Notes under the pieces: generated by a model
Seen by the model: only the letters and a program-made list of their open reading frames with translations
What the model was told of the DNA's origin: nothing
The model's database searches: none
Part shown: positions 300-58,325 of the stretch, in pieces
Numbering within the stretch: the first letter of the stretch is position 1
Layout of the letters: every line of letters starts with the position of its first letter
Assembly (NCBI GenBank): GCA_024137785.1
Contig: JAHRHZ010000012.1
Span: forward strand, 62,520,854 to 62,584,853
Origin: Ginglymostoma cirratum
Taxonomy: Eukaryota
Length of the DNA: 64,000 nt
Reading direction: 5' to 3'
Translations under genes and position numbers: made by a program

Positions 300-450
300 T
301 GGATAGACCAACAGGAAGCTGGAAAAACACAGCAGGCCAGGCAGCATCTGGAGGGAAGGAGCAGTCAACGTTTCGGGTATTACCTTTCTTCAGGACTTCC
401 TCCTGTTCGTCTACCTTGGATTCCAGCATCTGTAGCTTTTTTGTCTCTAA
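300..450. mobile_element. Penelope-like terminal-repeat (pLTR) fold-back fragment, family A
   Basis: gctggaaaaacacagcaggccaggcagcatc...ccagcatctg motif shared with ends of GIY-YIG-bearing copies at 11620 and 29706. Confidence 0.7.
365..393 (-). ncRNA. Minimal hammerhead ribozyme motif in pLTR
   Basis: Minus strand CTGAAGA-A-AGGTA-A-TACCC-GAAA-CGTTG; A10.1:C mismatch at base of stem II. Confidence 0.5.
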
Positions 451-1605
451 CATCTATGGATGTTGTTTATACGGACTTTCAGATGGCATTTGATAAAGTC
501 CGACGTAAGAAACCTTTTATAAGGTAGAAGGCCGTGGAATTGAGGGCAAATTACTAACATGACTGAGAAATTGGTTGAATGACAGAAAGTAGGGATAATG
601 GTTAGGTTGTTATAAAGTTGGTGTAATTGGTAAAATGCAACTGATGGTGTTCCACAAGGAATCTGCATTAGGGCCTCAGTTGTTCACCTCATTTGCTAAC
701 GACTTGGGTAATGGCATGGAAATACATATATCCAAATTTTCTGATGACGCAAAATTAGGCAGCATGTGGACACTGTAGATGATAGCGTAAAATTACAAAT
801 AGATCTTGATAAACCAGGCGAATAGGCAAAACTAGAGTTCAATGTAAAAGCCAATGTGAGGTTATCCATTTGGCACTGAAAAGGGATGGATCAGGGTACT
901 TTTTAGATGGTATGAAGTTAAATACGATCTTTATCCAAAGACATTAGAAGTTCAGCTGCATAGGTTTTTAAAATGTCCCAAACAGATGTAGAAAATAATC
1001 AAGAAAACCTTTATATCTATAGAGGTGAAGTATAAGGATGCAGAAGTCATGCTTGTTGCATTGATACAAACGCCTGGTTGGACCCATCTTAGTGTACTGT
1101 GAGCAGAACTGTGCATCACACCTTAGGAAGGATATATTGGTCTTGGAGGGAATACAATGTAGGTTTACAGGATTGATACCTAGACTTCAGGGGTTGAGTT
1201 ATGAGGACAGATAATACAAATTAGGCCTGTTTTCTTTGGAATTTAGAAGGTTAAGTGATAACCTGATCAAAGTCTGTAAGAAATTAACAGGAAAGGATGG
1301 GGTAGATAAGGATAAACGATTTCCACTGGTTATGGAGTTCAGAACTTGGGAGCATTGTCTGAGAATTAGAGCCAGACTGTTCAGGAAAGATGCTAGGGAA
1401 CCCTTGTACACGAAAAGGTGGTACATGCAATAAATGCAGGTTTGGGTTTTAAAACTGAGAAAAATAACTTCTGGTTAAACAAAAATATTAAGCTTTATGG
1501 ACCGAAGACAGGCACATGGAATTAGGCCACAGATTAGCCATGATCTTTTTGAATGGTGGAACAGCCTCGCGGGGATGAATAGCCTACCCTTGTTCCTATA
1601 TTTCC
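450..1605 (+). mobile_element. Decayed CR1/HER1 LINE (RT domain to 3' end)
   Basis: Degenerate DVVYTDFQMAFDKV, GVPQGSALGP, SKFSDDAKLG motifs with frameshifts; CR1 3' UTR ending ccttgttcctat. Confidence 0.88.
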
Positions 1606-1939
1606 AGGAGTAATCACAAACCACATTATAAGTCTCACTCATGGGTCAGAATTCTCAAAGGTACTGCAAGATCTCATAGGCTACGCAGGGCACATAAACC
1701 ATTCCCTCTAACCTTGACCTGTTAAGCATTCAACAATTTGTTCCTATATGCAGCGATGTCTTTCTTACAAAATATGAGGCTGGCAGCAGAAGATGGCAAT
1801 ACAATAGAAGCAGTTACAATATCCCATCTCTTTCTGACATAATAATGCTTCATCCCTTGGAAGATTGCGCTATGTCGATGTTCCTTGTGGAGGCGTTCCC
1901 TGGTCCTCCTTGTCAGGTGTTAAGCAGCTCAATAGAGGG

Positions 1940-2045
1940 TTCATGTGATACAATGGTAATGATCCTGTCTCTGAAACAGGTAATCCACATTCAATTCCCA
2001 TCTGCTCCAGAGGTGCATGATAACATGACTAAATAGCTTGATCTT
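1940..2045 (+). mobile_element. Short tRNA-derived SINE remnant
   Basis: Degenerate A/B-box head plus ctgctccagaggtg...ataacat body; same family at 6835-7045 and 59285-59400. Confidence 0.5.
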
Positions 2046-2109
2046 TTAAACAAAAACATACGACACTGTTTGGATTTTGGGCCAAAGAACCCATTTCCGT
2101 TCTGTAAAA

Positions 2110-2620
2110 TACCAAGTCATTTCATTGCAGAGGAGGTTTACTAGATTGTTCCCTGGTCTGGAGAGTTATATGTATAAAGTGAGGCTGGGCAGACTGGGGC
2201 TGTTTTCCTTGGAGCAGTGGAGACTGAGAGACACATGACTGAGTTGTATAAAATTATGATGGGCACAGTTGGGGTAAACATGGAGCAACCTTTCCCGTTG
2301 TTGGAGGGATCAATGACAAGGGGACATTGATTTAAGGTAAGGGGCAGGAAGTTTAGATGAGATATATGGAAAACCTTTTTCACCTAGAAGGTGTGGGAAT
2401 CTGAACTCACTGCCTGTAAGGGAGATGAAGGCAGCAACCCTCAAAACATTTTAAAATTATTTAGATGTGCACTTGCGATGCCAAGGCATACAATACTATG
2501 GTCCACGTGCTGGAAAATAGGACTAGAAAAGGATCAGAATCAGTTAGATGACTATTTTAGACTGGCACAGACTTGAAGGGATAAAAGACCTTTTTCTGTG
2601 CTGTAGATCTCTATAACTCT
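2110..2620 (+). mobile_element. CR1/HER1 LINE 3' fragment
   Basis: LGLFSLEQ.RLR.. VYKIM-type C-terminus and CR1 tail ctgtgctgtagatctctataactcta. Confidence 0.85.
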
Positions 2621-2765
2621 AATCCAGGATTACAGGGAATGCTACAATTGGACTCAGCAATTGTGGGTGCGAGACAGCCAGAATCCACTCCCGTGTTCAT
2701 TATCCAACTTGTGACCTCAGACAGTGTGTTTGGCGTTGGATGAAGAGTGAACAGGTTGAGCAACA

Positions 2766-2891
2766 AAAGTAGGGATAATGGTTAGATTGTCATAAAGTAG
2801 ATGTAATTGGTAAAATGCAACCGATGGTGTTCCACAAGGAATCTGCATTAGGGCCTCAGTTGTTCACCTCATTTGCTAACGACTTGGGTAA
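2766..2891 (+). repeat. 126-bp ungapped local duplicate of 586-711
   Basis: Direct copy at offset 2180, 5 mismatches by manual alignment. Confidence 0.92.
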
Positions 2892-3104: not shown

Positions 3105-3465
3105 GGGAGGTGATGACCTATTGGTATTAATGCTGCATTATTAATCCAGAGACCAGACAACATTCTGGAGACCTGGATTCAAATCCCACCACGGCAGATA
3201 ATGGAATTTGAATTCAATAAATATCTAGAATCAGGGATCTATTGATGACTGTGAATCCATTGTCAATTGTTGGAAAAACCCATCTGGTTCACTAATGTCC
3301 TTTAGGGAAGGAAAACTGCCATCCTTACCTGGTCTGGCCTACATGTGACTCCCGACCCATAGCAACGTGGTTGACTCTTAACTGCCCTCAGGGCAGTTAG
3401 GGATGGGCAATAAATGCTGCCTAGCCAGCCACACCCTCATCCTGTGAATGAACGAAAAAAAGAAA
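3105..3465 (+). mobile_element. tRNA-headed SINE family B (partner of LINE family B)
   Basis: ctggattcaaatccc B-box, aaacccatctggttcactaatgtcctttaggg core, tail gggcagttagggatgggcaataaatgctg...gaatgaa plus A-tract. Confidence 0.82.
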
Positions 3466-3684: not shown

Positions 3685-3840
3685 CACTGGAAGCATCTGT
3701 GAAAGAGAAAACAGAGTTAATGTTTTGGGTCTGGTGACCCTTCCTCAGAAACTTCACAGATGCCCTCAGACCTTCTGAGCTTTTCCAGCGACTTTGTTTT
3801 TGTTCCTGATTTACAGAATCCACAGTTCTTTTGGTTTTTA
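3685..3840. mobile_element. Penelope-like pLTR fold-back fragment with decayed hammerhead (3718-3748, minus)
   Basis: gcatctgtgaa...ttcacagatgc inverted arms; CTGAGGA-AGGGTC-acca-GACCC-AAAA. Confidence 0.7.
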
Positions 3841-8449: not shown

Positions 8450-8545
8450 AAACTGAACAATCGGTTCTGTCGAAGAGTCACTGGAGCCAAAACAATATTT
8501 CTGCTTTCTCTCCACAGATGCTGCCAGACTTGCTGATTTTTCCAA
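8450..8545 (+). mobile_element. Penelope-like pLTR fragment
   Basis: ctctccacagatgctgccagacttgctga motif. Confidence 0.6.
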
Positions 8546-9478: not shown

Positions 9479-10119
9479 GTCCTGGGAGTAGGGTAGTCCC
9501 TGAAAATCAAACCCTGCTATTACATGAGTTGTCACAAAATTTAAGATTTTTAAAAGTATGCAGAATCCCCAATACACCTGTCCTTTAAAGCTGGCTTGGC
9601 AGTGAGATATATTGAGTTGCAAAGAGATATGGTTTAACTAGAGATAAAGAATAATGAACCACTGACATAAAACTCTACTAGTTAAAACTATACCCACTTC
9701 TTAATGTGCCCCTTTACACATGCTTACAGACAGATACCAAAATGGCTATAATATGTGTGGGGAAGCCTGGAAAGGCAGTACAGTGGTCTCTGTGCACAGG
9801 CTTGGTGGTACAATCCTTCAGCTGAACAAAATGCTGCTTCTTCATCTTCGTTCTCCTGCTGCTTTCTGTTATTTGCAGGGGGCACAGGATGACGGGTTCA
9901 CATTTGTAAAGGTCTCTGGTTTATTAATTAAAAGCCACAGCTAATAGCATCTGATGAGGTAAAATAGACTGGCTATCTTCTGGTTTGAAATGCTTTTCAC
10001 TTTGGAGCAAAAACAGTTCCTTTCCTACCAGAGGTCCGAAATCTTCTGACCTGAACACTTGTGTTAATTACCTGGGAGCCAATCACATAGTTGTTGGCAT
10101 GATGTTGGCATCACTTTAG

Positions 10120-10148
10120 CTGATGAAGGGTCAGCACTCTGAAACCTT
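10120..10148 (+). ncRNA. Minimal hammerhead motif, Penelope family B terminal fragment (fragment extends to ~10195)
   Basis: CTGATGA-AGGGT-cagc-ACTCT-GAAA-cctt followed by taaacctgttggactatagcctggtgttgtgtga. Confidence 0.55.
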
Positions 10149-10460
10149 GTGATTTTAAGTAAACCTGTTGGACTATAGCCTGGTGTTGTGTGACTTCAGG
10201 TAGTTGTTGGCAAGTATGAGGCCTTTGTCATTGATAATTGGTCACCATTGCATAGACAAATCAACTACTTATTGTTGACCAAGTGTTCACTTATACACAA
10301 TGCCTTGGCTTCAGCTTATCTGTAACTAGGCTTCCCTACTGTTTTGAACAAACAGAGTGTAAACAACACTTAAAATGAGTGTCAGGTAACCTTTTCTTAG
10401 AAAATGCAGTATTCCCTTTCACAATCCTTGGCATTTAAACCAGCCTTTTTCCCTTTTCAG

Positions 10461-10938
10461 AGATAGTAGGAACTGCAGATGCTGGAGAATCTGAGATAAC
10501 ANNNNNNNNNNNNNNNNNNNNNNNNNNNNNNNNNNNNNNNNNNNNNNNNNNNNNNNNNNNNNNNNNNNNNNNNNNNNNNNNNNNNNNNNNNNNNNNNNNN
10601 NNNNNNNNNNNNNNNNNNNNNNNNNNNNNNNNNNNNNNNNNNNNNNNNNNNNNNNNNNNNNNNNNNNNNNNNNNNNNNNNNNNNNNNNNNNNNNNNNNNN
10701 NNNNNNNNNNNNNNNNNNNNNNNNNNNNNNNNNNNNNNNNNNNNNNNNNNNNNNNNNNNNNNNNNNNNNNNNNNNNNNNNNNNNNNNNNNNNNNNNNNNN
10801 NNNNNNNNNNNNNNNNNNNNNNNNNNNNNNNNNNNNNNNNNNNNNNNNNNNNNNNNNNNNNNNNNNNNNNNNNNNNNNNNNNNNNNNNNNNNNNNNNNNN
10901 NGGTGTTGCTTGGCCTGCTGTGTTCATCCAGCTCTACA
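10461..10938. mobile_element. Penelope family A insertion spanning a gap, 17-bp TSD
   Basis: cctttttcccttttcag at 10444-10460 and 10939-10955; pLTR arms on both sides of the Ns in opposite orientation. Confidence 0.85.
10502..10901. other. Assembly gap (400 N)
   Basis: Run of N. Confidence 1.
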
Positions 10939-11683
10939 CCTTTTTCCCTTTTCAGTCCAGAATCAAAAATATAGCAAAATTTTTTTAAAAATGCAGTATT
11001 TATAAAACTAAAATGAAAAGCTAAAAAGGAGAAACTTAAAGGCTTTTCTTCGAAAAGGGATTCAAGGTGACGAAGCCAAATGTATTAACTGATTAAAGAA
11101 TTGTAAGAATTGTTTTTATGATTGGAAGCCTGTGCAACAAGGAACAGTGCTGGTATCCTCGTTGTTTGTTTTGTTCATTAACAACTTGGATGTGAATGTA
11201 GAAAGCACAACTATTAAGTTTTCAGTTGACATTGAAATTGGTTCAGAGATAGTAGAAACTGCTGATGCTGGAGAATCTGAGAACATGAGGTGTAGAGCTG
11301 GATGAATACAGCAGGCCAAGCAGCATCAGAGGAGCAGGAAAGCCGTGTTTTTCGACAGTGAGGAGGATGGTCTCAAGGTACAGTCTGATATAGATCAGTT
11401 GGTGAATTGGTCAGAGCAGTGGCAGATGGAATTTTAATCCTGGGAAGTGTGAAAGGTGAATGTTGGGAGGCCTAATAAGGGAAGAATTTACACAATGAAG
11501 TCCCTAGGAAGTACTGAGGAATAAAGGGACCTTGATGTATAAGTCTATAGATCCCTGAAAGAGTCAGCACAGGTAGACTGGATATTGAAGGTGGCAAACA
11601 CGATGTTTGCCTTCATTAGAGATAACAAGGTGTAGAGCTGGATGAACACAGCAGGCCAACAGCATCAGAGAAGCAGGAAGGCT

Positions 11684-11711
11684 GACGTTTCAAGCCTAGA
11701 CCCTTCTTCAG
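11684..11711 (-). ncRNA. Minimal hammerhead ribozyme motif, intact core
   Basis: CTGAAGA-A-GGGTC-ta-GGCTT-GAAA-CG-TC. Confidence 0.68.
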
Positions 11712-11982
11712 AAATGGGGGAGGTGAAGGGGGCTCTGAAATAAATAGGGAGAGAGGGGGAGGCGGATATAAGATGGATAGAGGAGAAGATAGGTGGAGAG
11801 GAGACAGACAGGTCAAAGAGGCAGGGATGGACCAGTAAAGGTGAGTGTAGGTGGGGAGTTAGGTAGGAGATAGGTCAGTCCAGGGAGGACGGACAGGTCA
11901 AGGGTGCGGGATGAGGTTAGTAGGTAGGAGATGGGGGTGGGGCTTGAGGTGGGAGGAGGGGATAGGTGGGAGGAAGGACAGG

Positions 11983-12327
11983 TTAGGGAGGAGGGGGCGA
12001 GCTGGGCTGGTTTTGGGATGCTGTGGGGGAAGGGGAGATTTTGAAGCTTGTGAAGTCCACATTGATACCATTGGGTTGCAGGGTTCCCAAGCATATGAGT
12101 TGCTGTTCCTGCAACCTTCGGGTTACATCGTTGTGGCACTGCAGGAGGCCCTGGATGGACATGTTGAATGAAGAATGGGATGGGGAGTTGAAATGGTTCG
12201 CGACTGGGAGGTGCCGTTGTTTAGTGTGAACCAAGCGCAGGTGTTCTGCAAAGCGGTCCCCAAGCCTCCGCTTGGTTTCCCCGATGTAGAGGAGGCCACA
12301 ATGGGAACAGCGGATGCAGTATACCAC
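11983..12327 (-). pseudogene. Penelope GIY-YIG endonuclease domain fragment
   Basis: VYCIRCSHCGLLYIGETKRRLGDRFAEHLR...HFN...LGTLQPNGINVDF; in-frame TGA just upstream. Confidence 0.9.
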
Positions 12328-13639
12328 ATTAGCAGATGTTCAGGTGAACATCTGCTTGATGTAAAAAGTCTTCTTGGGGCCTGGGATAGGTGTGAGGGGG
12401 GAGGTGTAGGGGCAGGTGTAGCACTTCATTAGCTGGGTTGTAGAATATCGGAGCAAGGAAGTCTTACTACAATTTTATAAACCATTGGCTGGGTCACAGA
12501 TTAGATATTGTGTGAAGTTCTGATCATCACATTATAGAAGGGACGAGATTGGACTGGAGAGGGTGCAGAGGAGATACACCAGGCTGTTAGATAACAAGGT
12601 GTAGAGCTGGATGAACACAGCAGGCCAAGCAACACCAGAGGAGCAGGAAAACGGACGTTTCGGGCCTAGACTCTTCTTCGCCAGGATGTTGTCTGGGCTG
12701 GAAAGTCTCAAATATGAGGAGAGATTGGATGGGCTGCGTTTGTTTTCCTCGGAGCAGAGGAGGCTGAGGGGGCAATCTGATTGAGGTCTCCAAAATTATG
12801 AGAGGCATAAACAGATTAGATGGTGAGAATCTTTTCCACAGTGCAGACATGCCCAAGACCAGAGGGAATAGGATTAAGGTAAGGAGCTGGTAATTTAGAG
12901 GGGATCTGAGGGAAAAGATGTGCTTCTTGAGACATTGCTGAGGCAACATTTGAGAAAGATCTAGTTGAGCACTTAAAATGCCAGGACGTTGTAGGCTATG
13001 GATCAAGTGCAGATAATTGGGATTAGTACAGTTTAGTACAAAAACAGAAATTGCTGGCGAAACTCAGCAGGTCAGGGGAAGAAAGTAGAGTTTTTGAGTC
13101 CAATGACTCTGCATCAGAAAACCCTTGTGTAGTTTGGTGTCTGATTGTCAGCACAGACATGGTGGCTGAAGGACTTGTTTCTATCTCTATGTCTCTCTTT
13201 CCCTATGTCTCTCTAAAATTTGGCCGAGTTGACCAGTGCATTCATAGTGGCAGAATGATCATGGGAAGTAATATCTCTGGTGTAAAAAGGATAATAAAGA
13301 GAGAACTGAACACGAGGAAACAGTTAACCTCAATGCACAGAAGAATGAACTCAACAAAATCCTGATTCCTGATCAATTATTAACAATACGACAATGACAC
13401 ACACATTAGCTGCAATGATCAGTTCCTATCAAGAATGGAAGAAGCATTATCACCTGAACAGGCTGTAAGCTAAGCACCCATCATTATGTTGGAAATCACA
13501 TATCTTTCTGCTGTGCAAACAGCAGGGGAGTAGATAAGGAACTATCTCTGATTTTGCAGTTCTGCATAGCTCAAGATAAAGAGGTGTGAAAGACCAAGCA
13601 ATCAAGTAGGCTGTTAACCAAATATATGCTGAGCCCTAA

Positions 13640-14690: not shown

Positions 14691-14726
14691 AAAGACAGTA
14701 TTACCTTTCACATATGCATGTGAACA

Positions 14727-15662: not shown

Positions 15663-15762
15663 TATTTTCCAAAAATGCCCAGCTCTCCTTCACTGTTACT
15701 TCTCCTGCCTCCTCCCAAACTTATTATGAATTGATCCATATACTAGGTAAGGACGTAAAACA

Positions 15763-16135
15763 TAGACAACACATTGTGGAGCTGGAGGAGCACAGCAGGC
15801 CAGGCAGCATCAGAGGAGCAGGAAAGCTGATGTCCAGCTCCACACTGTGTTATCTCTGACTCCAGCATTGGCAGTTTTTACAACCTCTGAGTGAGTTATA
15901 ACCCCACTGCGAAGCCTCTTCTAGGGATACCTACCTTGGAGAAGTTATCCTCCTCCCTCCGGAAAGACCTCAGTGGATCTCTCGCCCATTGCAAGCCTCT
16001 GGTAATCTCTTCGGCCCTGAAGCTGCTCGATATGAAGAAGGGTCCTGATCCAAAATGTCAACTTTCCTGCTCGTATGACGCTGCCTGGCCTGCTGCGTTA
16101 TCTCTGACTCTGGCATCAGCAGTTCTTACTATCTC
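15763..16135. mobile_element. Rearranged Penelope family A insertion with probable ORF N-terminal piece, 15-bp TSD
   Basis: taaggacgtaaaaca 15748-15762 / taaggatgtaaaaca 16136-16150; pLTR arms flank LEKLSSSLRKDLSGSLAHC..VISSALKL. Confidence 0.75.
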
Positions 16136-16189
16136 TAAGGATGTAAAACAGTTGCTTTACATGTCTAAATATATAGCATGAACAGCTGC

Positions 16190-17812: not shown

Positions 17813-17929
17813 CCTGGACAAAATCCTGGTCTTCTGCGCAGAAATCTCCTAAATAAAGCCCACCATAGCATTACAACCATCCAAATAAACTCCACACAAC
17901 AACAATTCATCTTTTCGAGAAGATTTGTA

Positions 17930-18810
17930 GATCGGGTTGTAGATGAGGTTGTAGACATGCTCACTGAGCCAGTGGGTTCGGTTGCAAATGTTTTGTCACC
18001 CTGCTGGGTAACATCATCAGTGCACCTCTATTGAAGCGTCGGTGTTCTGTCCCGCTTGTTATTTATATGCCTCAGTTTGTAGTTTGTTGGGGTGTTTGGT
18101 ATTATTTCTGGCTATAATTAAAAGTTTATTATATTAAAAGAATAATCCGTCATTACCTCCGGGACAGACCACATAACAGGAAGACATAACACCACTGGAC
18201 TCACTAGTCACCCTACTGTACATCAAGGACATTTCAGAGATGACCACAAGACTATTCAGACCCCTAGGTATCAGGGTAGCCCACAAATCAACAAGCACCC
18301 TGCGACAGCTACTGATGAATGTCAAGGATCCCATACCCAAAACCTGCAAAACTGGTGTAATATACAAAATACCATGCAAAGACTGTGAGAAACACTACAT
18401 AGGCCAAACCGGGAGAAAACTGACAATATGGATAGACAAACACCAACTAGCCACCAAGAGACACGACCAATTCTCACTTGTCTCACTGCACACGGACAGT
18501 GAGGGACACAAATTCATCTGGGACAACATATCCATAATTGCACAAGGCAAACAGAGAAACGGCAGGGAATTCCTGGAGGCCTGTATTCTAACTGGAACTC
18601 CATCAACATTGAATTAGACCCTGTGCACAAACAACTGAGAAACAGGACCAGAAGTAATACCAAACACCCCAACAAACTGAGGCATATAAATAACAAGCTG
18701 GACAGAACACCGATGCTTCAGTGGAGGCCCATTGATGATGTTATCGAGCAGGTGACAAAACATTTGCAACCAAACACAATGGCTCAGCGAGCATGTCGGC
18801 AACTTCAACA
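17930..18810 (+). mobile_element. Penelope-like element family C with inverted terminal repeats
   Basis: ~17945-18110 is the reverse complement of ~18648-18807; decayed hammerheads at 17986-18020(-) and 18732-18764(+). Confidence 0.88.
18240..18617 (+). pseudogene. Penelope RT-linker plus GIY-YIG endonuclease fragment
   Basis: LPYIKDISEMTTRLFRPLGIRVAHK...GVIYKIPCKDCEKHYIGQTGRKL..H...REFLEA. Confidence 0.9.
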
Positions 18811-22544: not shown

Positions 22545-24040
22545 TGTTCCAACCAATCCCCTGGTGAGGTTTCCAAATTGCTATGGTTCCACATGGGAAA
22601 CCTCAAACTGTTAAGCTCCTTGGTGAGAAGGGATGAACTGGCTCCATTTGGTTCTACACTTGTCTCCCAGGTGGTTGCAGCAAGTTTACTTTTAGAAGGA
22701 ACGCTTCTCTTGTGGATACTTTTCTCTGAGACACAGATATTTCAAAAGGGGTCAACTTTAGTAGGGTTTTCTTGAAATAACAAAGAGAGTGAACTCATTA
22801 ATTACTAAACAAAAGACGAAAATAGGAATGCAACAGACATACACGCAGATTAGAATTATGACGTGAGTCCAAAAAGATAAAACGGAAATGAATATATATG
22901 GATTGATTTCTAAGTTTTGCATAAAGTGCAGATAGCTGAACCTTGCATTTATTGCAGTGGTGTTACCATTAGCAACAACATTGGTAATTTGACAGTTGAC
23001 TTCAAGACTCTTGGCTTTGTAGGTTGATTAAAATGCTTATGTACAGTCTTTCAGCAATAGTTGATTGGCAGCACTCAGCGTGAGGAATGGCTTTTTTTCT
23101 TTCCTTACCCATAGTGCAGGGGTGGTTAAAAAGCCATTCTGAGAGCTGAGACCTCCACAGCACACCGATCCATGCATTTGGACATCAGGCAATCTGCATA
23201 CACAGACCGTGGTTGGACATAAAAATCAAAAGAACTGCAGATGCTATAAATCAGGAACAAAAACAGAACTGAGGAAGGGTCACTGGATCCGAAACGTTAA
23301 CTCTGATTTTTTTCTTCACAGATGCTGCCAGATCTTCTGAGTTTTTCCAGCAAATTCTGTTTTTATCCATGGTTCAGCGACCTGGAGCCGATCAAATGAT
23401 AAGCAAAAGTCATCAACAATAGGTCACCATTACCAGACCAATCAGTTATTTGTCGCCAGCTGAACCTTCATTGTACACAACCCTTGCCCCCATGTTCTCT
23501 GCAAGTAGGCCTCCCCACCACTGCCTCAACCAACAGCAGCATGAACAGCATTTACAATGAGTGTCAGGTAACTTGCTTTTTAAAAGTGCAGGAATCATTT
23601 CCGCAATCCTTGTCCTTTCAAACAAAATGTCTGTTGACACCAATGTTACAATGATAGATTCTGAATGAACACGCTCACCTCTGTTTTTATATAAGCATAA
23701 GCATATGCAATATACGGCCGATTTTAACAACGCAAATAAAAACTTACTTTGTTTAAAAGCTTTTTCCCTTCAACAATATAATTTCGCATTGATTTTTGAA
23801 ACATTTTTATGAGCTAATTCGGTTTTATTTAAATTTAATTCTGATAATTCACTCCGAGGTGCCAGCAAATGCAATGTTTATAAAACAATCCTTTTCCCAT
23901 TTCAGCCCATAATCAAAAATATAGAAAATAAAAAAAAAATCCTCTTACAGTCCTTTTCTTAACAGAAAGTCAAACATGTTGTAATTAATGTTCAGTATGT
24001 CCATGGGTAATCCTGGGTTATGAACTGTGATCTTGAAACT
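22545..24040 (-). mobile_element. LTR-like insertion
   Basis: Interrupts LINE-B; tgtt at 22545 and ttaca at 23949; similarity to 9530-11005; right boundary uncertain (23949-24040). Confidence 0.45.
23269..23299 (+). ncRNA. Minimal hammerhead motif, intact core, in pLTR fold-back (23218-23367)
   Basis: CTGAGGA-A-GGGTC-actg-GATCC-GAAA-CGTTA. Confidence 0.68.
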
Positions 24041-24975: not shown

Positions 24976-25793
24976 TTTATAATCCTGATATTTTAACAAC
25001 CCCTACCAATCCTGCTAGGAGTTGAGTTAAAATTCAGACCACAGGGTTGCACCATTCCATGATTCTCCGCCATGTGACTATTTATCCAACATCCAACTGT
25101 GAATGATTCGTAGCTTTATCCAGTTCATCAGAATTAAAACCAAAACCATTGCTACTGGCGCCAGCCACCGATTTTGCTCCCTACCTTTTATTCCATTTCT
25201 CTCCTTAGCCATTGTCTCAAGCTGAAAAGAACACTAGAATTTTGTCAATCTGTTCTTTTCCCTTTTTTTCTTTATTTTATCTCCCCATTTTCTTGTCATT
25301 ACCCTCAAACAATTTTTTTTTAGTTTCTCTCTGAGCTCCCTCACATTTTCTCAATGCAGTCTCCTGCACCCTTATCCTACGAAGTGCTGACCAATCAATT
25401 TCCCTTCTGACCTAATGTTAACAGACATTGTTGATGGTTCTCTGTCCTTAGGCGCTGTTCACCTCCTTAAAACCTGCCATCATCACTCTTAAAACCTGCC
25501 ATTGTCATACCTCTCAATTAACTCTGGCCTCACTGGTGAGCTAAAGATACCAAACAGCTGCCCACTGCAATTCATCAATTGTATCAAAGATCGGCAAATG
25601 AACTTCATAGCTAACTGCCAGGATAAAAGTCAAGTAGTGACAATGATAATCAACAGAATAAACAGTCTGTACCTTTCCCTTAAAAGAGCTCAATGTAATT
25701 TTATGATGTGGAGGAGCCCATGTTAGACTGGGGTGGACAAGGTTAGATATCACACGACACTGGGTTATAGTCCAATGAGTTTATTTGAAAACA

Positions 25794-25823
25794 CAAGCTT
25801 TCAGAGCCTTGCTCCTTCTTCAG
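25794..25823 (-). ncRNA. Minimal hammerhead motif, family B
   Basis: CTGAAGA-A-GGAGC-aag-GCTCT-GAAA-GCTT (palindrome AAGCTT). Confidence 0.65.
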
Positions 25824-25987
25824 GTGTTAGTGAGGTGGTATCGGGCACATAATTTATAAGTAAGAGATCAAAGGGTCACACCACTGATGAGGATGTATTA
25901 AACAAACCTAAGATGCTGTCTCTCCCACATTCTCTCTCCCACACACATTCTTTCTCTCTCTCTCCCTTCCCCCTCACCACACGCACA

Positions 25988-26116
25988 NNNNNNNNNNNNN
26001 NNNNNNNNNNNNNNNNNNNNNNNNNNNNNNNNNNNNNNNNNNNNNNNNNNNNNNNNNNNNNNNNNNNNNNNNNNNNNNNNNNNNNNNNNNNNNNNNNNNN
26101 NNNNNNNNNNNNNNNN
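25988..26116. other. Assembly gap (129 N)
   Basis: Run of N next to (ct/ca) low-complexity sequence. Confidence 1.
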
Positions 26117-26538
26117 ATCTATGGGGTGAATTTGTATTTGCAGATATATCTATATTGTTCAAAAAGCAATTTATGGACAGTCAGTTTATGTGGCATTTTA
26201 TAAATTCCTTTTTGAGGAATAAAATCAGTCTGACTCCAAAACAAAACACAAACACTATCTAAACAAGGCCTCACACCCAACGTGCATTGTCTGACCTAAA
26301 ATGTCACCTCTTCTTTACACTTATAAAACCCTTAGTTCTCTCAGGACAGTGACTTGAAAGGAATTCGGAGATTTACATATACATATTAATCGGTGAAAAT
26401 CTTCTAACTGATTAAAGATTTAATAGCATCGTAGGTTTGTTTAATCCTCATCAATAGTGTGACCCTTGATCTTTTACTTACAAATTCTGTGTTTGATACT
26501 ACTTCTCTCATTAACACTTAAAGAAGGTCATGGTGCGG

Positions 26539-26648
26539 ACAAGCATGGGGCTAGATGAACACAGCAGGTCAAGCAGCATCATAGGAGCAGGAAAACTGCT
26601 CCTATGATGCTGCTTGGCCTGCTGTGTTCATCCAGCCCCATGCTTGTT
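26539..26648. repeat. Near-perfect ~52-bp-arm hairpin (Penelope family A pLTR)
   Basis: acaagcatggggctagatg...ggagcag-gaaaa-ctgctcc...catccagccccatgcttgt. Confidence 0.9.
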
Positions 26649-27634
26649 ATCTCGGATTCTCCAGCATCTGCAGTACTTTTTATCTCATGGTGCGGACATG
26701 CTGGTCTTGGACTAGGGTGGAGCAAGGTTCTGAAAGCTTGCCTTTTCAAATGAACCTGTTGGACTGTAACCCGGCGTTGTGTGATTTCTGACAATGTAAT
26801 TTCACAGCAGTGTTATGTTCAGGAGATAATGTAGTTTCTTACTTGCCACATACCTTTCCAGCTATATTGATATTGTTTGTGACATAGTACATTAACCTTT
26901 TAGGCTCTGGAAGTTATAACATGCACCCCCTGCAAAGTCTGGGAACATCATAAAAAAATATATTTTATTACCACTTGCAATTCAACAGAATTCCAATTAC
27001 CTATCTTTAAAATACACAGTTTTTTTTCATTTTTACGCTCTGCTTTTTAAAAAGCAATGGTTCTTGTATGTTTACAGCACAGCACTCGCTTTAACTATGG
27101 ATGAGATGAGACAGGAGGGAATGGGATACGTGCATCCACACTTTCCTGTGAAACAATGGAATTGGATTCTGGTTTGGAATTTATCCAAATTCCACTCCAA
27201 CCTATTTTCTGGACACACTGTAGCTTATTACAATTGCCTGACTACCAACTGACCTAACACTCATCAAAAGTCGAAATAGATGACTTCCTGGTCGGCATAC
27301 TGGTTCCGGGTCTCCCCGTACCTCGAATTTAAAACATTCCTCTTTGTGATTAAATTCCAACCTTTTGTAAACTGTTTCTATTTTTACACATATCTTCAGC
27401 AACATTTGCCTGTAGCAAGGAGAAATTGAAATGTTCTTTATGGGTGTTCCTTCTGGGTGGTCGAATGACAACATTGGTTCCATTGCTTAACCCATGATAT
27501 TTTTTTCTGCTAACCAGATGAATGAAGAAGTTGGAAACCAATCAGTTTTCAGGTATGCTCCATGATATTTTTATGTCAGCCATGCCTCAACTGTAGCTCA
27601 CTCAACATCCAAGGCAGATTAAAACTGAACACAC

Positions 27635-29530: not shown

Positions 29531-29705
29531 TCTAGGAAATAGGGTTTTGCTGCCATTGCTGGATTCTGTCAGGTGCAGGGCTTATTATGGTCATCAAAGT
29601 GTCTGGTGACTTTTTGACCAATGAGATCAGTCAACAGGAAAGGTTTCCACTGCTTCACTATACAACGGGTCTGTGACCAGAACAAGAGTTTGCTCAAAGT
29701 GACTC

Positions 29706-30220
29706 AGAGATAGTAAGAACTGCCAATGCTGGAGTCAGAGATAACACAGTGTGGAGCTGGAGGAACACAACGGGCCAGGTAGCAACAGAGGAGCAGGAAA
29801 GCTGACATTTCGGGTCGGGACACTTCTTCAGAAAAGGGGAGGGGAAAGGGAGCTGGGAAATGAATAGAGAGAGGAGTGGTGGGGCTGGGGAAGGCAGGTG
29901 GGATGGTGATTGGTGAGTACAGGTAGGCAGTAGTGGGGATTGGTCAGTGAGGTGGGAGGAGTGGATAGGTGGGAGAGAAGACGGACAGGTCAGGAGGTGG
30001 GGATGAGAGGGAGGGTTGGTCATGGGATGAGGCCGGGGGTGGGGAGATTTTGAAGCTAGTAAAGTCTACATTGGGTTGTAGGCTTCCAAGGAGGAATATA
30101 AGGTGCTGCTCCTCCAGTTTCCGGGTGGCGTCGTTGTGACACTGGAGGAGGCCCAGGATGGACATGCCGTCCAGGGAGTGGGAGGGGTAGTTGAAGTGGT
30201 TCGTGACTGGAAGGTGTGAC
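29706..30220 (-). mobile_element. 5'-truncated Penelope family A copy (hammerhead at 29804-29831)
   Basis: HLPVTNHFN..MSILGLLQC..RKLEEQHLIF.LGSLQP; CTGAAGA-A-GTGTC-cc-GACCC-GAAA-TGTC. Confidence 0.88.
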
Positions 30221-30381
30221 TGCATGATTTTATAAACTTTGATAAGGTCACCCTTCAAGCTCCAACACCCCTTTGACCTAACGTTTGGCCCTCGCTGTGG
30301 ATGAAGCATTATCTTGACTGTGAATGACCCGATAATTCCTTTCACCACCTCATATCATTTTCCTTATCATGTCTGTAATAA

Positions 30382-35689: not shown

Positions 35690-36115
35690 TTCAATGGTCC
35701 TGATCTGTTCCACAGTGATTCAATTTTGTTTCACAGCAATACTGACTAGCTTCACTGTGATCCCAATCTACTGCACAGTGATTCCAACCTGCTTGATAGG
35801 GATCCCACCATACTTCTTGATGAGGATTCTGAGGAAGGGTCACCGGACCCAAAATGTTAACTCTGTTTTTCCCTTCACAGATGCTGCCAGACCTGTTGAG
35901 CTTTTCCCGCAACTTTGTTTTTGTTCCTGATTTACAGCATCCACACTTCTTTCAGCTTTTATTTAGTACTTCTTGGTGATCCTGATTTCTTCACAGTGAT
36001 CTTGATCTGCTTCACAGTGATTTTGCTCTGATTCCCAGTGATCCAGGTCTGCTTCGCAGCCATCCGAACCTGTGACACATTGATCCCGAATTGCTTCACA
36101 GTGATTCAACCAGTT
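35690..36115. repeat. Degenerate 21-bp minisatellite (consensus cacagtgatcctgatctgctt)
   Basis: ~13 imperfect units, interrupted by pLTR insert. Confidence 0.8.
35824..35966 (+). mobile_element. Penelope pLTR fragment with decayed hammerhead, ~13-bp TSD
   Basis: tacttcttgatga/tacttcttggtga flanks; CTGAGGA-AGGGTC-accg-GACCC-AAAATG. Confidence 0.78.
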
Positions 36116-37290: not shown

Positions 37291-38509
37291 TTTGGAAATG
37301 AAGTTTACAATGGTTTTGAACGTACCCTTAATTTTGGTGTAAAATTTTTGACAATATTTTATAACCTGAAGACCTTTTAAGAAAAAGAAAATGCCCAAAA
37401 TAAAAGCTATAGAGAGCCAAGATGAATCTGACACTTTGAAACCAACTCCAAGGCATATTACTTGGTTTCTCTTGTAAACTTGTAAGCATTTCATTTATTC
37501 TGTGTTTCATAGGAACGCGCTCCAGTGTGTGGGTGCTGAAAGTTCGCCTGACATTCAATGTCACTGCCAAGCAATGGACACAACTGCCTCCCAGTGGAAG
37601 GATGGTGTATTTAGCCAGCCCTTGGGCAGCCAGTGAAAGGTGGTTGCTTGATGCCAAATGGGGGGAAGACCTCAGTGCCCTCAATGTTCTCCCCAAGACC
37701 TCAATATTCTCCCCAGCTACAATTCCACCTGGAGCCACTATCTCTCTCTTTATCTCTCTCTCTTTCTCTCCCCCGTCCACCATGAGGAGGCTAGCACTAC
37801 TTTACTGTCCCCATTCCCAGCAGATGGTCATGTGATAAACCGATTTGTCTTAGGGATGTTTGTGACCATAACTAATATCAGGGAGTCTGTTTGCACATGT
37901 GCAGACTGCCATTTATGCCAATTATGGAGGGAAGCGTAGAAAAACTTGAACTTCACAGTCACAGGACATTGAATTAAATACTTTTCAATATACTCAGTGT
38001 TCATATTTATTAAACACGGCAACCAATTTTGCCAGTTTCCCAAACAACATTGTGATAACAGACATTGTGTCTTTATCTGCAGTAGTCTGTGAACCATTGT
38101 TGTCCTGATGTTCCTGATGGAACTTGTCCCAAAGAAGGATGATTGGACAATCTATAAACGAAAGTTACTGGGGAAACTCAGCAGGTCTGGCAGCATCTGG
38201 AGAGAGAGAAACAGGGTAAACCTTTTGAGTCCAGTGTCTCTTGTTCAGAATTGATTGAACAGTTGTGTAGTGAGGTGAGGTGAGGTGAGGAGCGCACGAG
38301 GAAGACTGGGCCCTATTTCAGGCAGTCAGCATTATTGACAGGAGCATGTGAGGAAAGGACCTCATTGCAGGCAGTCAGAAACAGCAATAGATATGTTGGA
38401 GTTGATTGGAATTGGTTCTTGCTCGCTTATAGAGAAAGGAGATAGCTGTTTGGTGAGTCTCTGGTAAGTCATTAAGGTCTTTTCTATCCATAAATTTTGA
38501 CAAAAATAA

Positions 38510-40770: not shown

Positions 40771-40952
40771 TAACAAGAACTGCAGATGCTGCAGTCAGAG
40801 TCTACACAGTGTGGAGCACATAGGTCAGACAGCATCACAGGAGGAGGGAAGTCAGAACTGCCCTGAAGAAGGATCCCAACCTGAAATGTGAACTTTCCTG
40901 CTCCTCTGACACTGCCTGACCTGCTGTGTTCCTCCAGCTCCACACTGTGTTG
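40771..40952. mobile_element. Penelope family A fold-back mini-insertion, perfect 18-bp TSD, hammerhead-like 40863-40890
   Basis: accatttcttatttgaga at 40753-40770 and 40953-40970. Confidence 0.88.
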
Positions 40953-46520: not shown

Positions 46521-46621
46521 CAGCTACACATCGTTCCAGAGGAATTGCATAACTGGCAACTTTTCTTTTATGAGCCATACCATGAACCATTCTATGAAGC
46601 GTCACAGGCAAACAGAATCGT

Positions 46622-46750
46622 CTCGGAAGAAAGGTCCAGACCTGAAACATCAGTTTTCCTGCTCCTCTGATGCTGCTTGGCCTGCTGTGTTCATCCAACT
46701 CTACGCCTTGTTATCCCAGATTCTCCAGCATCAGCAGTTCCTACTATCTC
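46622..46750 (+). mobile_element. Penelope family A pLTR
   Basis: gaagaaaggtccagacctgaaacatcag...ctccagcatcagcagttcctactatctc. Confidence 0.8.
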
Positions 46751-47187
46751 CGAATGCTACACTTATCTGATTTAGACATTTGACTTACTGGAGTGTCATA
46801 AGGAGTGCTATCCCTGCCTGAAATTTCCCACTATAACTGAATAATCTCCCAACTATTGTTTCAACTGGAATCAGTCAACTCAGCACAGTGCACTGGCTAC
46901 CCTCAATTGAGCAAAAGGTGAAGTCAAGCATTTCACACTGCTACTATGAAGAAACTCCACAAATAATATTTTCAGCTAATAAGATGCTGCAAGAAAGGCA
47001 AATATATACATACATATGCTGTGCCTACCATACATGTCAATGGCATATGAATTTCAGTACCAATGCATTGTTTTCACAAATGGCTGATCACTTTAAACAA
47101 TATTTCCTTTTTGTTTTTTGCAATAGGCAGATTATTGTCTGTCCTCAATCAGCTCATGCTTGCAAACATAGAACATAATGTATAACT

Positions 47188-53885: not shown

Positions 53886-54118
53886 TAAAAATATGTGGTA
53901 CCACACAAAGTGGTGAAATAAAAAAATACAGAATGCTGCAGAAACTCATTGGGTCTGGCAGCATCTGTGAAGAGGAAAAATAATGTTTTGAGATTGATAT
54001 GACCCTACGGCATTTCATAAGACGATGGTTTGTGCCATGGTGGTCAACAGTGTGTTAAGCACTGTCTAGTGAGCCCCACCCTGCCCACCATGTCACCTTT
54101 GCTGCATTGGAAGACAAT

Positions 54119-54412
54119 AGGACAGCACAGTGGCTCAGTGGTTAGAACCGCTGCCTCACAGCACCAGGAACCTAGGTTTCATTCCACACTCGGGTGACTG
54201 TCTGTGTGAAGTTTGCACATTCTCCCCATATCTGCGTGGGTTTCCTCCAACAGTCCAAAGATGTGCAGTCTAGGTAGATTAACCATGCTAAATTGCCCGT
54301 AGTATTCAGAGATGTATATATTAGCTGGATGTGTCTGGGTGGGATGCTCTGAGGGTCAGTGTAGACTTGTTTGGCCAAAGGGCCTGTTTTCACACTGCAG
54401 GGATTCTATGAA
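54119..54412 (+). mobile_element. HE1-type V-SINE
   Basis: gcacagtggctcagtggttag head, V-domain, gggattctatga tail. Confidence 0.9.
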
Positions 54413-55175: not shown

Positions 55176-55309
55176 CATGTAAAAATAACATTTGGAAACA
55201 AATACACTGCTGGAAGAGGAAGCAATTGAGGAGGATCGTTGCAATGGTCATTCTGTTTCACACAGCAGGGAATTACCACAATTGAAGTTGTCTCCCATCT
55301 TGAATATCT

Positions 55310-55853
55310 TCTGGAATTCTGTGTCCAGTTTTGGTCGCCCAGTTATAGGAAGGATATTATTAAGCTGGAGAGGGTTTAGAAGAGATTTACCAGGATGTTA
55401 CTGGGTATGGGAAGCTTGAGTTATGAAAAAGTGCTGAATAGGCTGGGACTATTTTCACTGGAGTTTAGGAGGTTGAGAGGTGACCTTTTCAAAGTTTATA
55501 AAATCATGAGGGGTGTAGATAGGGTTAATGGTAGATAACTTTTCCTTAGGATTGGGGATTTCAAGACTAGGGACACATTTTTAAGTTAAGGGAAGAGAGA
55601 TTTACAAAAGACATGGGGGACAATTTTTTTACACAGATGGTGCTTCGTGTGTGGAATGAACTTCCTGAGGAAGTGGTGGATGTACAATTACAATGTTTAA
55701 AGACATTTGGATAAGTACATGAATAGGAAAGGTTTGGAGGGATATGGACCAGAAGCAAGCAGGTGGGACTAGTTTAATTTGGGATTATGTTCAGCATGGG
55801 CTGGTTGGACAGAAAGGTCTGTTGCTGTGCTGTATGACTCTACGACTTTATGA
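55310..55853 (+). mobile_element. HER1/CR1 3' end
   Basis: LEFCVQFWSP, LERV.KRFTRML, VYKIMRGVDRVN; tail. Confidence 0.92.
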
Positions 55854-56209
55854 TGCCCAGTGCCCTTAGAATCCCTAGGTATGCAGTGCTCTTCCTGGTT
55901 AAGGGAAATTCACTACCAAATTTTCACTATGATTTTGTACCTAACACATGAATAGTAGTGAGAGATTCCCTAAATGAATATGTTAATACTTAAATAAAAT
56001 GCACAACAAAGTGAGAGATGACTAAGTAAATATACTGGATATATAAGGCTCAAAATCATGGTTGAAATAACAGCTTAAAATGTTACTGTGATATTTTTCT
56101 GTCAACAATTTAACAGAGTTGTTAATTTACCTGAAATGAAATGTTTAACATCTCTGTTAAAATGTTGCACAAAAGAATGCCATACAAATGGATTACGTAT
56201 TTATATTGA

Positions 56210-56355
56210 ACCTACCTCTTTGGCAAAGCTTTTCCCTAATAACAAATTATATTGCTCACTGTCTAATTGTGCGTCATTTCGTTCTCCCGTGAAGTGCTTT
56301 GGAATATTTCATTGCAATATATGTTTCAGTTGCCACATAAATGTAAGTCGTTGTT
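56210..56355 (+). mobile_element. L2-type 3' tail
   Basis: gtgaagtgctttgg...ataaatgtaagtcgttgttg. Confidence 0.5.
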
Positions 56356-57064
56356 GGATGCTTTTAGCCTGTAAATTATCTAGCTCATAGTTCTAGCTTG
56401 TAAATTTCTGCAAGGATTACTACAGGAGGATATTCTTCAGATTTCATTGAATTAAACAAGTAGATTTGCGCTACGGAAATCCATTCTCGGTGTTATAAAT
56501 GAATATTTAATTAAGCTAATTACGTAACCAGATATCTTCTCCCACTACAGCTTGTGCTCTTCTGAAGGTGCTGCTGTTTGTAGTTTATAAAGGCAACATA
56601 GGGAGCATCACAGCAAGGCTCAATTATATCCATGTCATTACATGATCTTTTCCAGCAGAAGGTCTTGGCCTATGATGAGCACAGATTGTTATCCTGACTT
56701 ATTGTCGTTTCCTCTCTATATCATGCTGCACTGAAGCCAAATAAAGTGCTGTACTACAGCCTGGGCTGAAATAACCTGACTCACTGCAGGAAGGATCAAA
56801 CCTTGTTTGTATAGCTCAATCACACAACAGGCATTTCTCAGGAAAGCCACTGAGGAAAATAAATACTAAATGTGGCTTGCTTGATATTCTCAAAATACGT
56901 TGTTTACAGTTTCATATCTCCAGAAACAATAATGTCACCTTTCAACGCTTAGTTTGCTTAATAAAAACTGAAAGAACTGCAGATGCTGTAAATCAGAAAC
57001 AAAAACAGAAATTGCTTGAAAAGCTCAGCAGATCTGGCAACACCTATGGAGAAAAATCAGAACG

Positions 57065-57095
57065 CTGAAGAAGGGTCACCGGGCCCGAAACGTTA
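57065..57095 (+). ncRNA. Minimal hammerhead motif, intact core, in pLTR fold-back (56958-57160)
   Basis: CTGAAGA-A-GGGTC-accg-GGCCC-GAAA-CGTTA. Confidence 0.7.
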
Positions 57096-57257
57096 ACTCT
57101 AATTTCTCTCCACAGATATTGCCAGAGCTGCTGAGCTTTTGCAGCACTTCCCGTTTTTGTGGCTATTAGTTTGCTTTTTCAGAACTATGACGTTCTCCAG
57201 CTCAATGCTGGGGAGGTTGAAGTAATCACTTTTGGCTTCCTCGTTAACTCTATACAC

Positions 57258-57492
57258 TTTTTTAAAATCATTCATGGGATGAGGGCGTTGCTGGCTAGGC
57301 AACATTTATTGCCCATCCCTAATTGCCCAGAGTGCAGTTAAGAGTCAACCACATTGCCGTGGGTCTGGAGTCACATGTTGGCCAGAGCAGGTAAGGATGG
57401 CTGTTTCTTTCCCTGGAGGACACGAGTGAACCAGATGGGTTTCCCAACAATCAGCAATGGATTCACAGTCATCATTACACTCTTAATTCCAC
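57258..57492 (-). mobile_element. SINE family B
   Basis: catttattgcccatccctaattgccc, gtgaaccagatgggttt. Confidence 0.85.
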
Positions 57493-57499
57493 TTCTCAC

Positions 57500-58325
57500 C
57501 AACTTGACTTGACTGCCTTGTCACTGTCTCAGATGGAACCAAACTCTTCATAACCTTGGCATCCTGTGATAAGTTTCTGGCTATGTCTATCCCATAATCT
57601 TCCATCTCCACAGTGTGGAGATAGCAAGAGCTGCAGATGCTGGAGTCAGAGTCAATACACTGTGGAGCTGGAGGAACACAGCAGGTCAGGCTCAATCAGA
57701 GGAGCAGGAATGTATATGTTTCAGATCTGATGAAGGGTCCTGAACTGAAATGTTGACTCTCCTGCTCCTCTGATGCTGCCTGACCTGCTGTCTTCCTCCA
57801 GCTCCACACTGTGTTGACATCTTCACAATGTGCCATGTTCAGCCCCATCTGCACCTCCACATGAAGCCAGAAACCCTCCTAAATGCCTTTGCCACTCCAG
57901 CTTTAACAAAATACAATCTGCCCTTACTGACCTACATTTGCCATGAATCAAATTTTAAAAAAACTATATTTAGAAAACAACTAATTTGATCCATGCCTCA
58001 TCCTTTCCTATCTTTGTAACATCATTGAGTCATGCAATAAAGCTCTTCAGTGCACCAATCTCCTGACTTTGTTCTCTTACACACAGGTACCCCTTCTCTT
58101 TTACCACAAAGGCAGCTGTGCCAATAACTTCTTAGGCCCCATGTGCTGAAATTTTGTTTTTAAACCTCATTGATTTGTCACCTCATTTTCTTTCATGCTG
58201 TGCTCTTTAAAACTAATTTCTTTAATCAAGTTTTGGATCCACTTATTTCTCTGTTTCTTTGGCTAACTGTCCAATTTTTTCTTTATTCCTTGGAACGTTT
58301 TTCTACATAAAAGGTGATTTTTTTT
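57500..58325 (+). mobile_element. L2 LINE 3' remnant interrupted by pLTR hairpin
   Basis: FHLH.. then ETLLNAFAT (~ETLIHAFVT); tail ccttggaacgtttttctacataaaagg. Confidence 0.6.
57613..57817. mobile_element. Penelope family A fold-back with hammerhead-like motif 57727-57754, ~10-bp TSD
   Basis: catctccaca 57603-57612 / catcttcaca 57818-57827; inverted arms. Confidence 0.82.

What the first reader, a model, noticed from the sequence alone, without database searches (positions are those of the whole stretch)
365..57754. Dispersed minimal hammerhead ribozymes carried by three different Penelope families
Seen: a CUGANGA-[extra A/U]-stem II-GAAA-short palindrome (ACGU, AACGUU or AAGCUU) motif. Best copies are 11684(-), 23269(+), 57065(+) and 25794(-); weaker ones are 365(-), 10120(+), 29804(-), 40863(+) and 57727(+). 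Stem II differs between families (GGGUC/GACCC, GGAGC/GCUCY, GUUACC/GGUGAC) while the core is constant, which points to structural rather than sequence conservation. Established: Penelope-like elements carry minimal type I hammerheads with a palindromic stem III thought to act as dimers. Inference: about 14 motifs in 64 kb implies a very large genome-wide pool of potential self-cleaving sites in introns and UTRs. I do not know whether these shark variants have been characterised.
Basis: partly seen in the sequence, partly recalled or inferred. Interest (0 to 1): 0.7.

Follow-up and report, generated by a model that had tools for sequence, protein, structure and literature searches.

The report
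Penelope hammerheads with fixed-start short copies
These are real copies of a known tiny self-cutting RNA motif carried by Penelope-type jumping genes; most are decayed, but many short copies begin just in front of the motif, which likely marks where the element's uncut RNA starts and offers a test of how these elements copy themselves.

Summary
Observation confirmed. The window holds 20 whole minimal type I hammerheads from four Penelope-like families, not three: three Neptune-type and one Poseidon-type, each tied to RT and GIY-YIG remains. Stems I, II and III change in compensatory fashion between families.

The kind is known (Cervera 2014). The genome has at least 91,920 exact intact-core copies.

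The 'pool of cleaving sites' is overstated. 16 of 20 window copies are broken and none is perfect. In 848 kb sampled elsewhere, 40 of 175 are intact, the catalytic G12 decays at the CpG rate, and only 4 of 47 have a same-strand partner within 1 kb. No host exon was found.

The fresh point: about 40-50% of Neptune A1/A2 copies start 0-7 bases before the core (56-92-fold enrichment), carry target-site duplications and often form head-to-head pairs. Few start at the cut site. The template was therefore mostly uncut RNA with a fixed 5' end, most likely a transcription start (inferred). This scan noted the same pattern before, on this and other genomes.

The parts
11617..12474 (-). Family A1 (Neptune-type) 5'-truncated element: Cys linker remnant and GIY-YIG endonuclease (11986-12474), 3' UTR, hammerhead, tail
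   Evidence: Pfam PF01541 E 3.3e-5 for 11986-12339; 40 genome copies scored, 91-93% identical over 800 bp apart from itself
11681..11714 (-). A1 hammerhead, C3 at 11711; core intact, stem II weakened to G-U pairs
12587..12684 (-). A1 short copy, core broken
29696..30228 (-). Older A1 element: endonuclease remnant, UTR, broken hammerhead (C3 29831), tail
40771..40952 (+). A1 fold-back unit, hammerhead at 40863 decayed; 18-bp target-site duplication 40753-40770 / 40953-40970
57618..57816 (+). A1 fold-back unit, hammerhead at 57727 decayed
46620..46754 (+). A1 short copy (hammerhead plus tail), core broken
16030..16163 (+). A1 short copy, core broken
11235..11351 (-). A1 tail-only copy
15756..15892 (.). 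A1 tail arms in inverted arrangement, no hammerhead core
26539..26686 (.). A1 fold-back of tails only, inserted into the second family B hammerhead
10432..10945 (.). A1 tail arms on both sides of an unreadable N stretch
56960..57165 (+). Family A2 (Neptune-type) fold-back unit; hammerhead C3 57065 has intact core and stem II but no stem I 5' strand; 11-bp duplication 56949-56959 / 57166-57176
23209..23366 (+). A2 fold-back unit; hammerhead C3 23269 has intact core and stem II but no stem I 5' strand
35824..35966 (+). A2 short copy, G12 changed to A; 13-bp duplication with one mismatch
3689..3839 (-). A2 fold-back unit, C3 3748, G12 changed to A; 14-bp duplication
314..400 (-). Old A-type copy, C3 393; core letters kept, closing pair of stem II broken
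8459..8543 (+). Decayed A2 copy
38153..38256 (-). Decayed A2 copy; further A2 remnants at 13040-13119, 36913-36996, 37200-37275, 53926-53988 (all minus)
25702..26791 (.). Family B (Neptune-type) inverted pair of terminal repeats between 11-bp duplications; hammerhead 25792-25826 (-) keeps stems I and III with a G-U closing pair; the second hammerhead (+) is split by the A1 insertion
10100..10200 (+). Family B short copy, C3 10120, palindrome lost; 12-bp duplication
17913..18805 (.). Family C (Penelope/Poseidon-type): inverted terminal repeat (hammerhead 17984-18023, -), endonuclease remnant 18177-18614 (+), terminal repeat (hammerhead 18729-18767, +); both G12 changed to A; 13-bp duplication with one mismatch

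Best explanation
The motifs are the minimal type I hammerheads in the terminal repeats of four Penelope-like retrotransposon families, scattered as mostly decayed insertion products, and the many short copies were likely made by reverse transcription of uncut element RNA that starts just before the ribozyme. Shown: family membership, copy numbers, CpG-driven decay, a fixed 5' boundary 3-5 bases before C3 in the Neptune families, target-site duplications and head-to-head pairs. Inferred: the element's protein nicks AT-rich DNA and starts reverse transcription in the tail about 95 or 127 bases downstream of C3; when it uses the tail at the RNA's front end it runs off the 5' end and leaves a 100-130 bp hammerhead-plus-tail copy; copying from both nicked strands gives the fold-back units. 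The RNA 5' end is most likely a transcription start at the A four bases before C3. Cleavage would need a dimer or the element's protein and would act only in the element's own transcript. The fold is conserved in the transposing lineages, not in the scattered copies.
For: RT and GIY-YIG remains lie upstream of the motif in all four families. 5' ends at -7..0: 47 of 123 A1 and 41 of 82 A2 copies, 56- and 92-fold over the upstream rate. Their upstream flanks are inverted arms (20 of 53, 32 of 50) or unrelated DNA (0 of 18 A2 flanks shared). 35 of the first 100 intact A1 copies listed break at 0..-7 (hand tally). In 4 of 4 public runs from two coded organisms the best-supported 5'-side loose end is at -3. 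Duplications of 6 bp or more in 9 of 20 simple short A1 copies against 0.6 shuffled. Position -4 is A or T in 36 of 38 A1 and 29 of 36 A2 short copies. Both families read YYANWYY there (initiator consensus recalled). Only 4 of 123 and 4 of 82 copies start within 2 bases of the cut site. Internal RT initiation, two-strand nicking and uncut RNA as substrate are reported for Poseidon of Anolis (PMC11167929).
Against: No RNA 5' end was seen; only contigs were available. A cap-derived extra G is not significant (5 of 9, p=0.08; 1 of 2). Ends spread from -2 to -7, and the T at -4 is unexplained. In Drosophila virilis the start lies about 120 bases upstream of the hammerhead (PMC2377424 with PMC4209133). 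Family C shows no such boundary (0 of 11; 0 of 6). No full-length copy with its front repeat was found to check the predicted start. A second 5' hot spot inside the A1 ORF (4 of 5 long copies within 14 bases) shows that fixed breaks can arise without an evident promoter. A weak excess of starts at the cut site may exist.
Confidence: 0.6

Rival explanations
1. The fixed 5' end is a processed RNA end: a longer transcript is trimmed by a 5'-to-3' exonuclease up to the folded, protein-bound hammerhead, which works as a protective cap rather than a cutter.
For: The boundary coincides with the first base of stem I in A1 and A2; ends spread over several bases; no clear cap-derived G.
Against: Family C has an equally good stem I and no boundary. 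The B subfamily short copies share sequence to about -7 to -10, beyond stem I (by eye). Stem I has low predicted stability in three of four window copies.
Confidence: 0.17
2. The boundary is made at DNA level: the endonuclease cuts the cDNA or a hairpin intermediate in front of the motif, or second-strand priming uses the short T-rich run there; head-to-head pairs could come from self-priming on an antisense template.
For: Poseidon endonuclease prefers ATT in its own repeat (PMC11167929); A1 has ATT there. Several duplications overlap the element's first bases. Self-priming on antisense RNA was proposed for rotifer elements (PMC3846280).
Against: Other T runs in the UTR and tail show no peak. 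A2 has GTT, not ATT. Both arms of head-to-head pairs often stop at the same boundary with 0-27 filler bases.
Confidence: 0.16
3. One reading: the copies form a large pool of working self-cleaving sites that shape host intron and UTR RNAs.
For: At least 91,920 exact intact-core copies; repeat sequence is present in four runs guessed to be RNA.
Against: Core positions diverge like the neighbouring tail (G 6.0% vs 6.2%, p=0.91; A 4.5% vs 6.7%, p=0.06), and G12 is changed in 37 of 159. 4 of 47 intact copies have a same-strand intact partner within 1 kb, 22 an opposite-strand copy. Published monomers did not cleave and dimers were slow (PMC4209133); the Poseidon ribozyme needed protein (PMC11167929).
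Confidence: 0.07

Closest known systems
Minimal hammerheads (min-HHR) of metazoan Penelope-like elements (Cervera and De la Pena 2014, PMC4209133)
   Same: Type I core, extra base between A9 and G10.1, G10.1-C11.1 pair, palindromic 15.2-16.2, location in terminal repeats, mostly solo copies, several families per genome
   Different: At least 91,920 exact copies against about 4,000 (coelacanth) and 9,000 (Xenopus); no shark named in the parts read or in 2 of 3 supplementary files; a fixed 5' start is not described in the parts read
Neptune-clade and Penelope/Poseidon-clade endonuclease-bearing elements (Craig 2021, PMC8557442; Arkhipova 2013, PMC3846280)
   Same: RT then GIY-YIG; CX2-5CxxC linker in A1 and B, absent in C; inverted 5'-truncated copy, 30-40 bp optional tail, duplications of about 10 bp
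   Different: Short hammerhead-plus-tail units and ORF-less fold-backs are a major product here
Poseidon of Anolis carolinensis (Frangieh 2024, PMC11167929)
   Same: Two 3' ends about 30 bases apart in the tail; hammerhead upstream of the tail; uncut RNA copied
   Different: Biochemically tested there, nothing tested here; the boundary is seen in Neptune families, not in the Poseidon-type family C
Non-LTR retrozymes (PMC7229834; bioRxiv 10.64898/2026.07.22.740005)
   Same: Short non-coding hammerhead units related to Penelope terminal repeats
   Different: Retrozymes are tandem arrays, many with canonical ribozymes; these copies are solo or inverted and carry minimal ribozymes

Membership tests
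Minimal type I hammerhead of PLEs | Core CUGANGA / GAAA / UH in type I order | tested here: met
   Family majority and 73 of 175 sampled copies; 4 of 20 window copies pass with stem II and palindrome
Minimal type I hammerhead of PLEs | Stem II with G10.1-C11.1 and an extra base after A9 | tested here: met
   Extra A or U in all families; inner pairs G-C/U-A, G-C/A-U/U-G, U-G/G-C/A-U between families (G10.1-C11.1 was part of the filter there, searches show it unfiltered)
Minimal type I hammerhead of PLEs | Palindromic minimal stem III | tested here: met
   ACGU in A1, A2, C and AGCU in B
Minimal type I hammerhead of PLEs | Short stem I with compensatory changes | tested here: met
   Pair 2.1-1.1 is U-A (A1, A2), C-G (B), A-U (C); pairs 2.2 and 2.3 change likewise. 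Lost in window copies 23269 and 57065
Minimal type I hammerhead of PLEs | Self-cleavage after H17 as dimer or with protein | not testable with these tools
   Genomic footprint inconclusive
Endonuclease-bearing Penelope-like element | RT followed by C-terminal GIY-YIG in one frame | tested here: met
   A1: PF01541, RVT_1 in 3 of 6 A1/C fragments, best E 6.3e-5. A2 and B by tblastn to A1. C endonuclease by motif only; Pfam missed it
Endonuclease-bearing Penelope-like element | Inverted or tandem terminal repeats, optional tail, target-site duplications | tested here: met
Neptune clade (A1, A2, B) | CX2-5CxxC linker between RT and endonuclease | tested here: met
   Seen in A1 and B (L051); A2 inferred from 50-65% identity to A1 across this region
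Neptune or Poseidon clade | Placement in an RT tree with named references | not tested
   No reference sequences on hand
Non-LTR retrozyme | Tandem head-to-tail arrays with a ribozyme in each unit | tested here: not met
   No such array in the window; 4 of 47 intact copies with a same-strand intact neighbour within 1 kb

The most novel reading that the evidence does not exclude
Neptune-type Penelope elements start transcription at the first bases of their hammerhead, so the ribozyme is also the RNA's leader; reverse transcription from the front-end tail yields a fixed 100-130 bp 'strong-stop' product that inserts by itself or head-to-head from both nicked strands. Hundreds of thousands of genomic copies would then record this step of a poorly understood transposition cycle, with a rare subset recording ribozyme cleavage in living cells.
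Probability: 0.4. Interest if true: 0.6.

Novelty: new member of a known kind. Interest (0 to 1): 0.37.

Why it matters
What the hammerhead does for Penelope-like elements, and how their inverted repeats arise, are open questions (PMC8557442, PMC11167929). This genome supplies very many junctions that show the copied RNA usually kept its ribozyme uncut and had a fixed front end. That gives exact predictions for 5'-end mapping and in vitro reconstitution. It also gives four natural ribozyme variants with compensatory stems. The host-regulation idea is much weaker than the copy number suggests.

Tried and rejected
Rfam scan: no hammerhead family matched; minimal motifs fall below those models. 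Host gene search: 0 Pfam hits in the 148 longest of 388 non-repeat ORFs, so intron context and sense/antisense bias stay untested. A 3' splice site as cause of the boundary: rejected, since A1 has no AG there and short A2 copies share no upstream exon. Hidden subfamily UTRs as cause: rejected for A1/A2 (7 of 33 A1 'shared' flanks were N runs or one shared host repeat). Cut-site footprint: 22 of the first 100 of 5,094 matches start at N1.1 against about 7 per neighbouring position, but 11 are ambiguous (palindrome or A-rich inverted arm); the clear 11 give p=0.10 (hand tally). Cap-derived G: not significant. Full-length elements: none found among 18 extended loci. MAFFT misaligned family B by one column, so pairs were counted by motif anchoring; no R-scape-type test was run. 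PDB and NCBIfam gave nothing useful for the RT. The protein atlas gave no result, and the representative-protein search was not finished when I stopped. Public runs were contigs only and cannot show RNA ends. Lunse et al. 2017 is not held; I know it only through a review.
Full report
Observation. All nine listed motifs are present. A strict descriptor gave 6 hits in the window against 0.35 in 20 Markov simulations. Family profiles gave 31 hits, 20 spanning the whole motif. Of these 20, 16 are broken, 2 (23269, 57065) keep core, stem II and palindrome, and 2 (11711, 25823) close stem II with G-U. 23269 and 57065 have lost the 5' strand of stem I, and in the predicted fold of 57065 the inverted arm pairs with the palindrome and the cut-site base. 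No window copy is a perfect hammerhead. Rfam gave no hammerhead hit.

Four families. The window is G000:C12:62520854-62584853 in a 4.36 Gb assembly. A1 (stem II GGGU/GCCC): a GIY-YIG remnant lies upstream of 11711 (Pfam E 3.3e-5), and genome copies carry RT, a CX4CxxC linker and the endonuclease. A2 (GGGUC/GACCC): 9 of 30 loci have ORF remains about 50-65% identical to A1 upstream of the motif. B (GGAGC/GCUCC): RT and endonuclease about 25-36% identical to A1 lie upstream of a long UTR, with the Cys linker. C (GUUACC/GGUGAC): RT and endonuclease without the linker. RVT_1 matches 3 of 6 A1/C fragments; Pfam missed the C endonuclease. By the linker criterion in PMC8557442 (passages) A1, A2 and B are Neptune-type and C is Penelope/Poseidon-type; no tree was built.

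Structure. These are four lineages chosen partly by pattern, so this is a tabulation and not a significance test.

Numbers. Exact intact-core patterns match 82,368 (A1), 8,188 (A2), 804 (B) and 560 (C) times, with 0 for each reversed control; the sum is 91,920, a lower bound. I fetched 120 stretches of 10 kb: the first 60 at arbitrary places, 342,791 of 600,000 bases reading N, and 60 more beside readable ones; 847,598 bases were readable. They hold 175 whole motifs (206 per Mb): 40 intact, 7 with a G-U closing pair, 26 with core only, 102 with broken core. The same patterns are 1.5 times denser in this sample than genome-wide, so the total is roughly 0.6-0.9 million remnants and 1-2 hundred thousand intact. 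For comparison, about 4,000 and 9,000 minimal motifs were reported for coelacanth and Xenopus (PMC4209133), and up to 120,000 canonical ones for axolotl (section title in PMC7229834).

Decay. G12, C11.1 and both palindrome bases sit in CpG and are changed in 23-28% of A1/A2 copies. Other core G and A positions diverge like the tail (6.0% vs 6.2%; 4.5% vs 6.7%, p=0.06). The scattered copies show no sign of selection. Only 4 of 47 intact or near-intact copies have a same-strand intact partner within 1 kb; 22 have an opposite-strand motif. No host exon was found.

Fixed 5' start. Of copies reaching the tail, 47 of 123 A1 and 41 of 82 A2 start at -7..0 from C3, 56 and 92 times the upstream rate; 4 and 4 start near the cut site. 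The flank is an inverted arm or unrelated DNA. Among intact young copies 35 of 100 A1 (hand tally, mode -3) and 20 of 30 A2 break there. Contigs of 4 of 4 public runs, from two coded organisms, show their main 5'-side loose end at -3 (76, 36, 88 and 27 contigs, low agreement among flanks). One B subfamily lacks a long UTR in 8 of the 8 such copies fetched (by eye); family C shows no boundary (0 of 11, 0 of 6). 3' ends fall near +95 and +127. Nine of 20 simple short A1 copies have duplications of 6-15 bp (0.6 expected), and seven window units have 11-18 bp duplications. The short units are therefore independent insertions copied through an uncut ribozyme.

Mechanism. Frangieh 2024 (parts 1-2 of 4 read) showed internal RT starts in the tail, nicking and extension of both strands, uncut RNA as main substrate and a protein-dependent ribozyme. 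Run-off from an RNA that begins at the hammerhead explains both the short copies and the head-to-head pairs. A transcription start is favoured because position -4 is element-like (A or T in 36 of 38 and 29 of 36) and fits the recalled initiator consensus in both families. It is not shown: the extra-G test failed to reach significance, the Drosophila start lies further upstream (PMC2377424 passages), no full-length copy was found, and an unexplained second hot spot lies inside the A1 ORF. A lead from earlier notes, starts at the cut site, gave 22 of 100 against 7 expected, but half are ambiguous; this is at most about 1% of A1 copies.

Literature. Read: PMC4209133 parts 1-2 of 4 and 2 of 3 supplementary files searched for shark names, none found; bioRxiv 10.64898/2026.07.22.740005 parts 1-3 of 5, which includes one chondrichthyan with tandem retrozymes, supplements not seen and possibly relevant; passages only of PMC8557442, PMC6155905, PMC6765202, PMC2377424, PMC8969392, PMC3846280, PMC7229834. 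Six searches listed no paper on shark Penelope hammerheads or on this fixed start; hits were judged from listings and passages, and Repbase, Dfam and subscription journals were not searched.

Verdict. Real, known in kind, four new members at very high copy number. The host cleavage pool is unlikely. The fixed start is the part worth testing; earlier AI notes of this scan report it too, which is not independent support.

Noticed in passing
L008:159 (also L014/L251, L227, L245): Four of five long A1 copies that reach this point of the RT N-terminal region begin within 14 bases of it, with unrelated flanks: a second 5' break hot spot, unexplained.
   Followed up: partly
A1 and A2 short copies, position -4 from C3: Where the native A is absent the base is T in 18 of 20 (A1) and 12 of 19 (A2); slippage, misreading of a modified first base or a non-templated addition are possible.
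   Followed up: partly
window 26516-26791: An A1 fold-back made of tails only is inserted inside a family B hammerhead, so A1 was active after B.
   Followed up: no
L068-L097, just upstream of the A2 hammerhead: The A2 UTR ends in a branch-point-like word, a pyrimidine run and CAG two bases before the core, like a 3' splice site; Drosophila Penelope has an intron ending at the same place (PMC4209133).
   Followed up: partly
L044-L067: Family B carries a long CA/CT microsatellite between the ORF end and a roughly 400 bp UTR.
   Followed up: no
window 14712-15663, 48210-49159, 55308-55853, 19718-19938: Fragments of a LINE whose translation looks CR1-like (label recalled, not tested).
   Followed up: no
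window 16762-17045, 33547-33794, 44139-44451, 47187-47508, 53563-53852, 54126-54412; and 3138-3462, 38505-38684, 57257-57491, 63689-64000: Two further dispersed repeat families of about 300 bp, SINE-sized, not identified.
   Followed up: no
window 35976-36105: Tandem repeat of 21 bp, 6 copies, starting right after the A2 insertion at 35824-35966.
   Followed up: no
window 20423-20486: Short imperfect hairpin with weak microRNA-model matches far below the gathering score.
   Followed up: no
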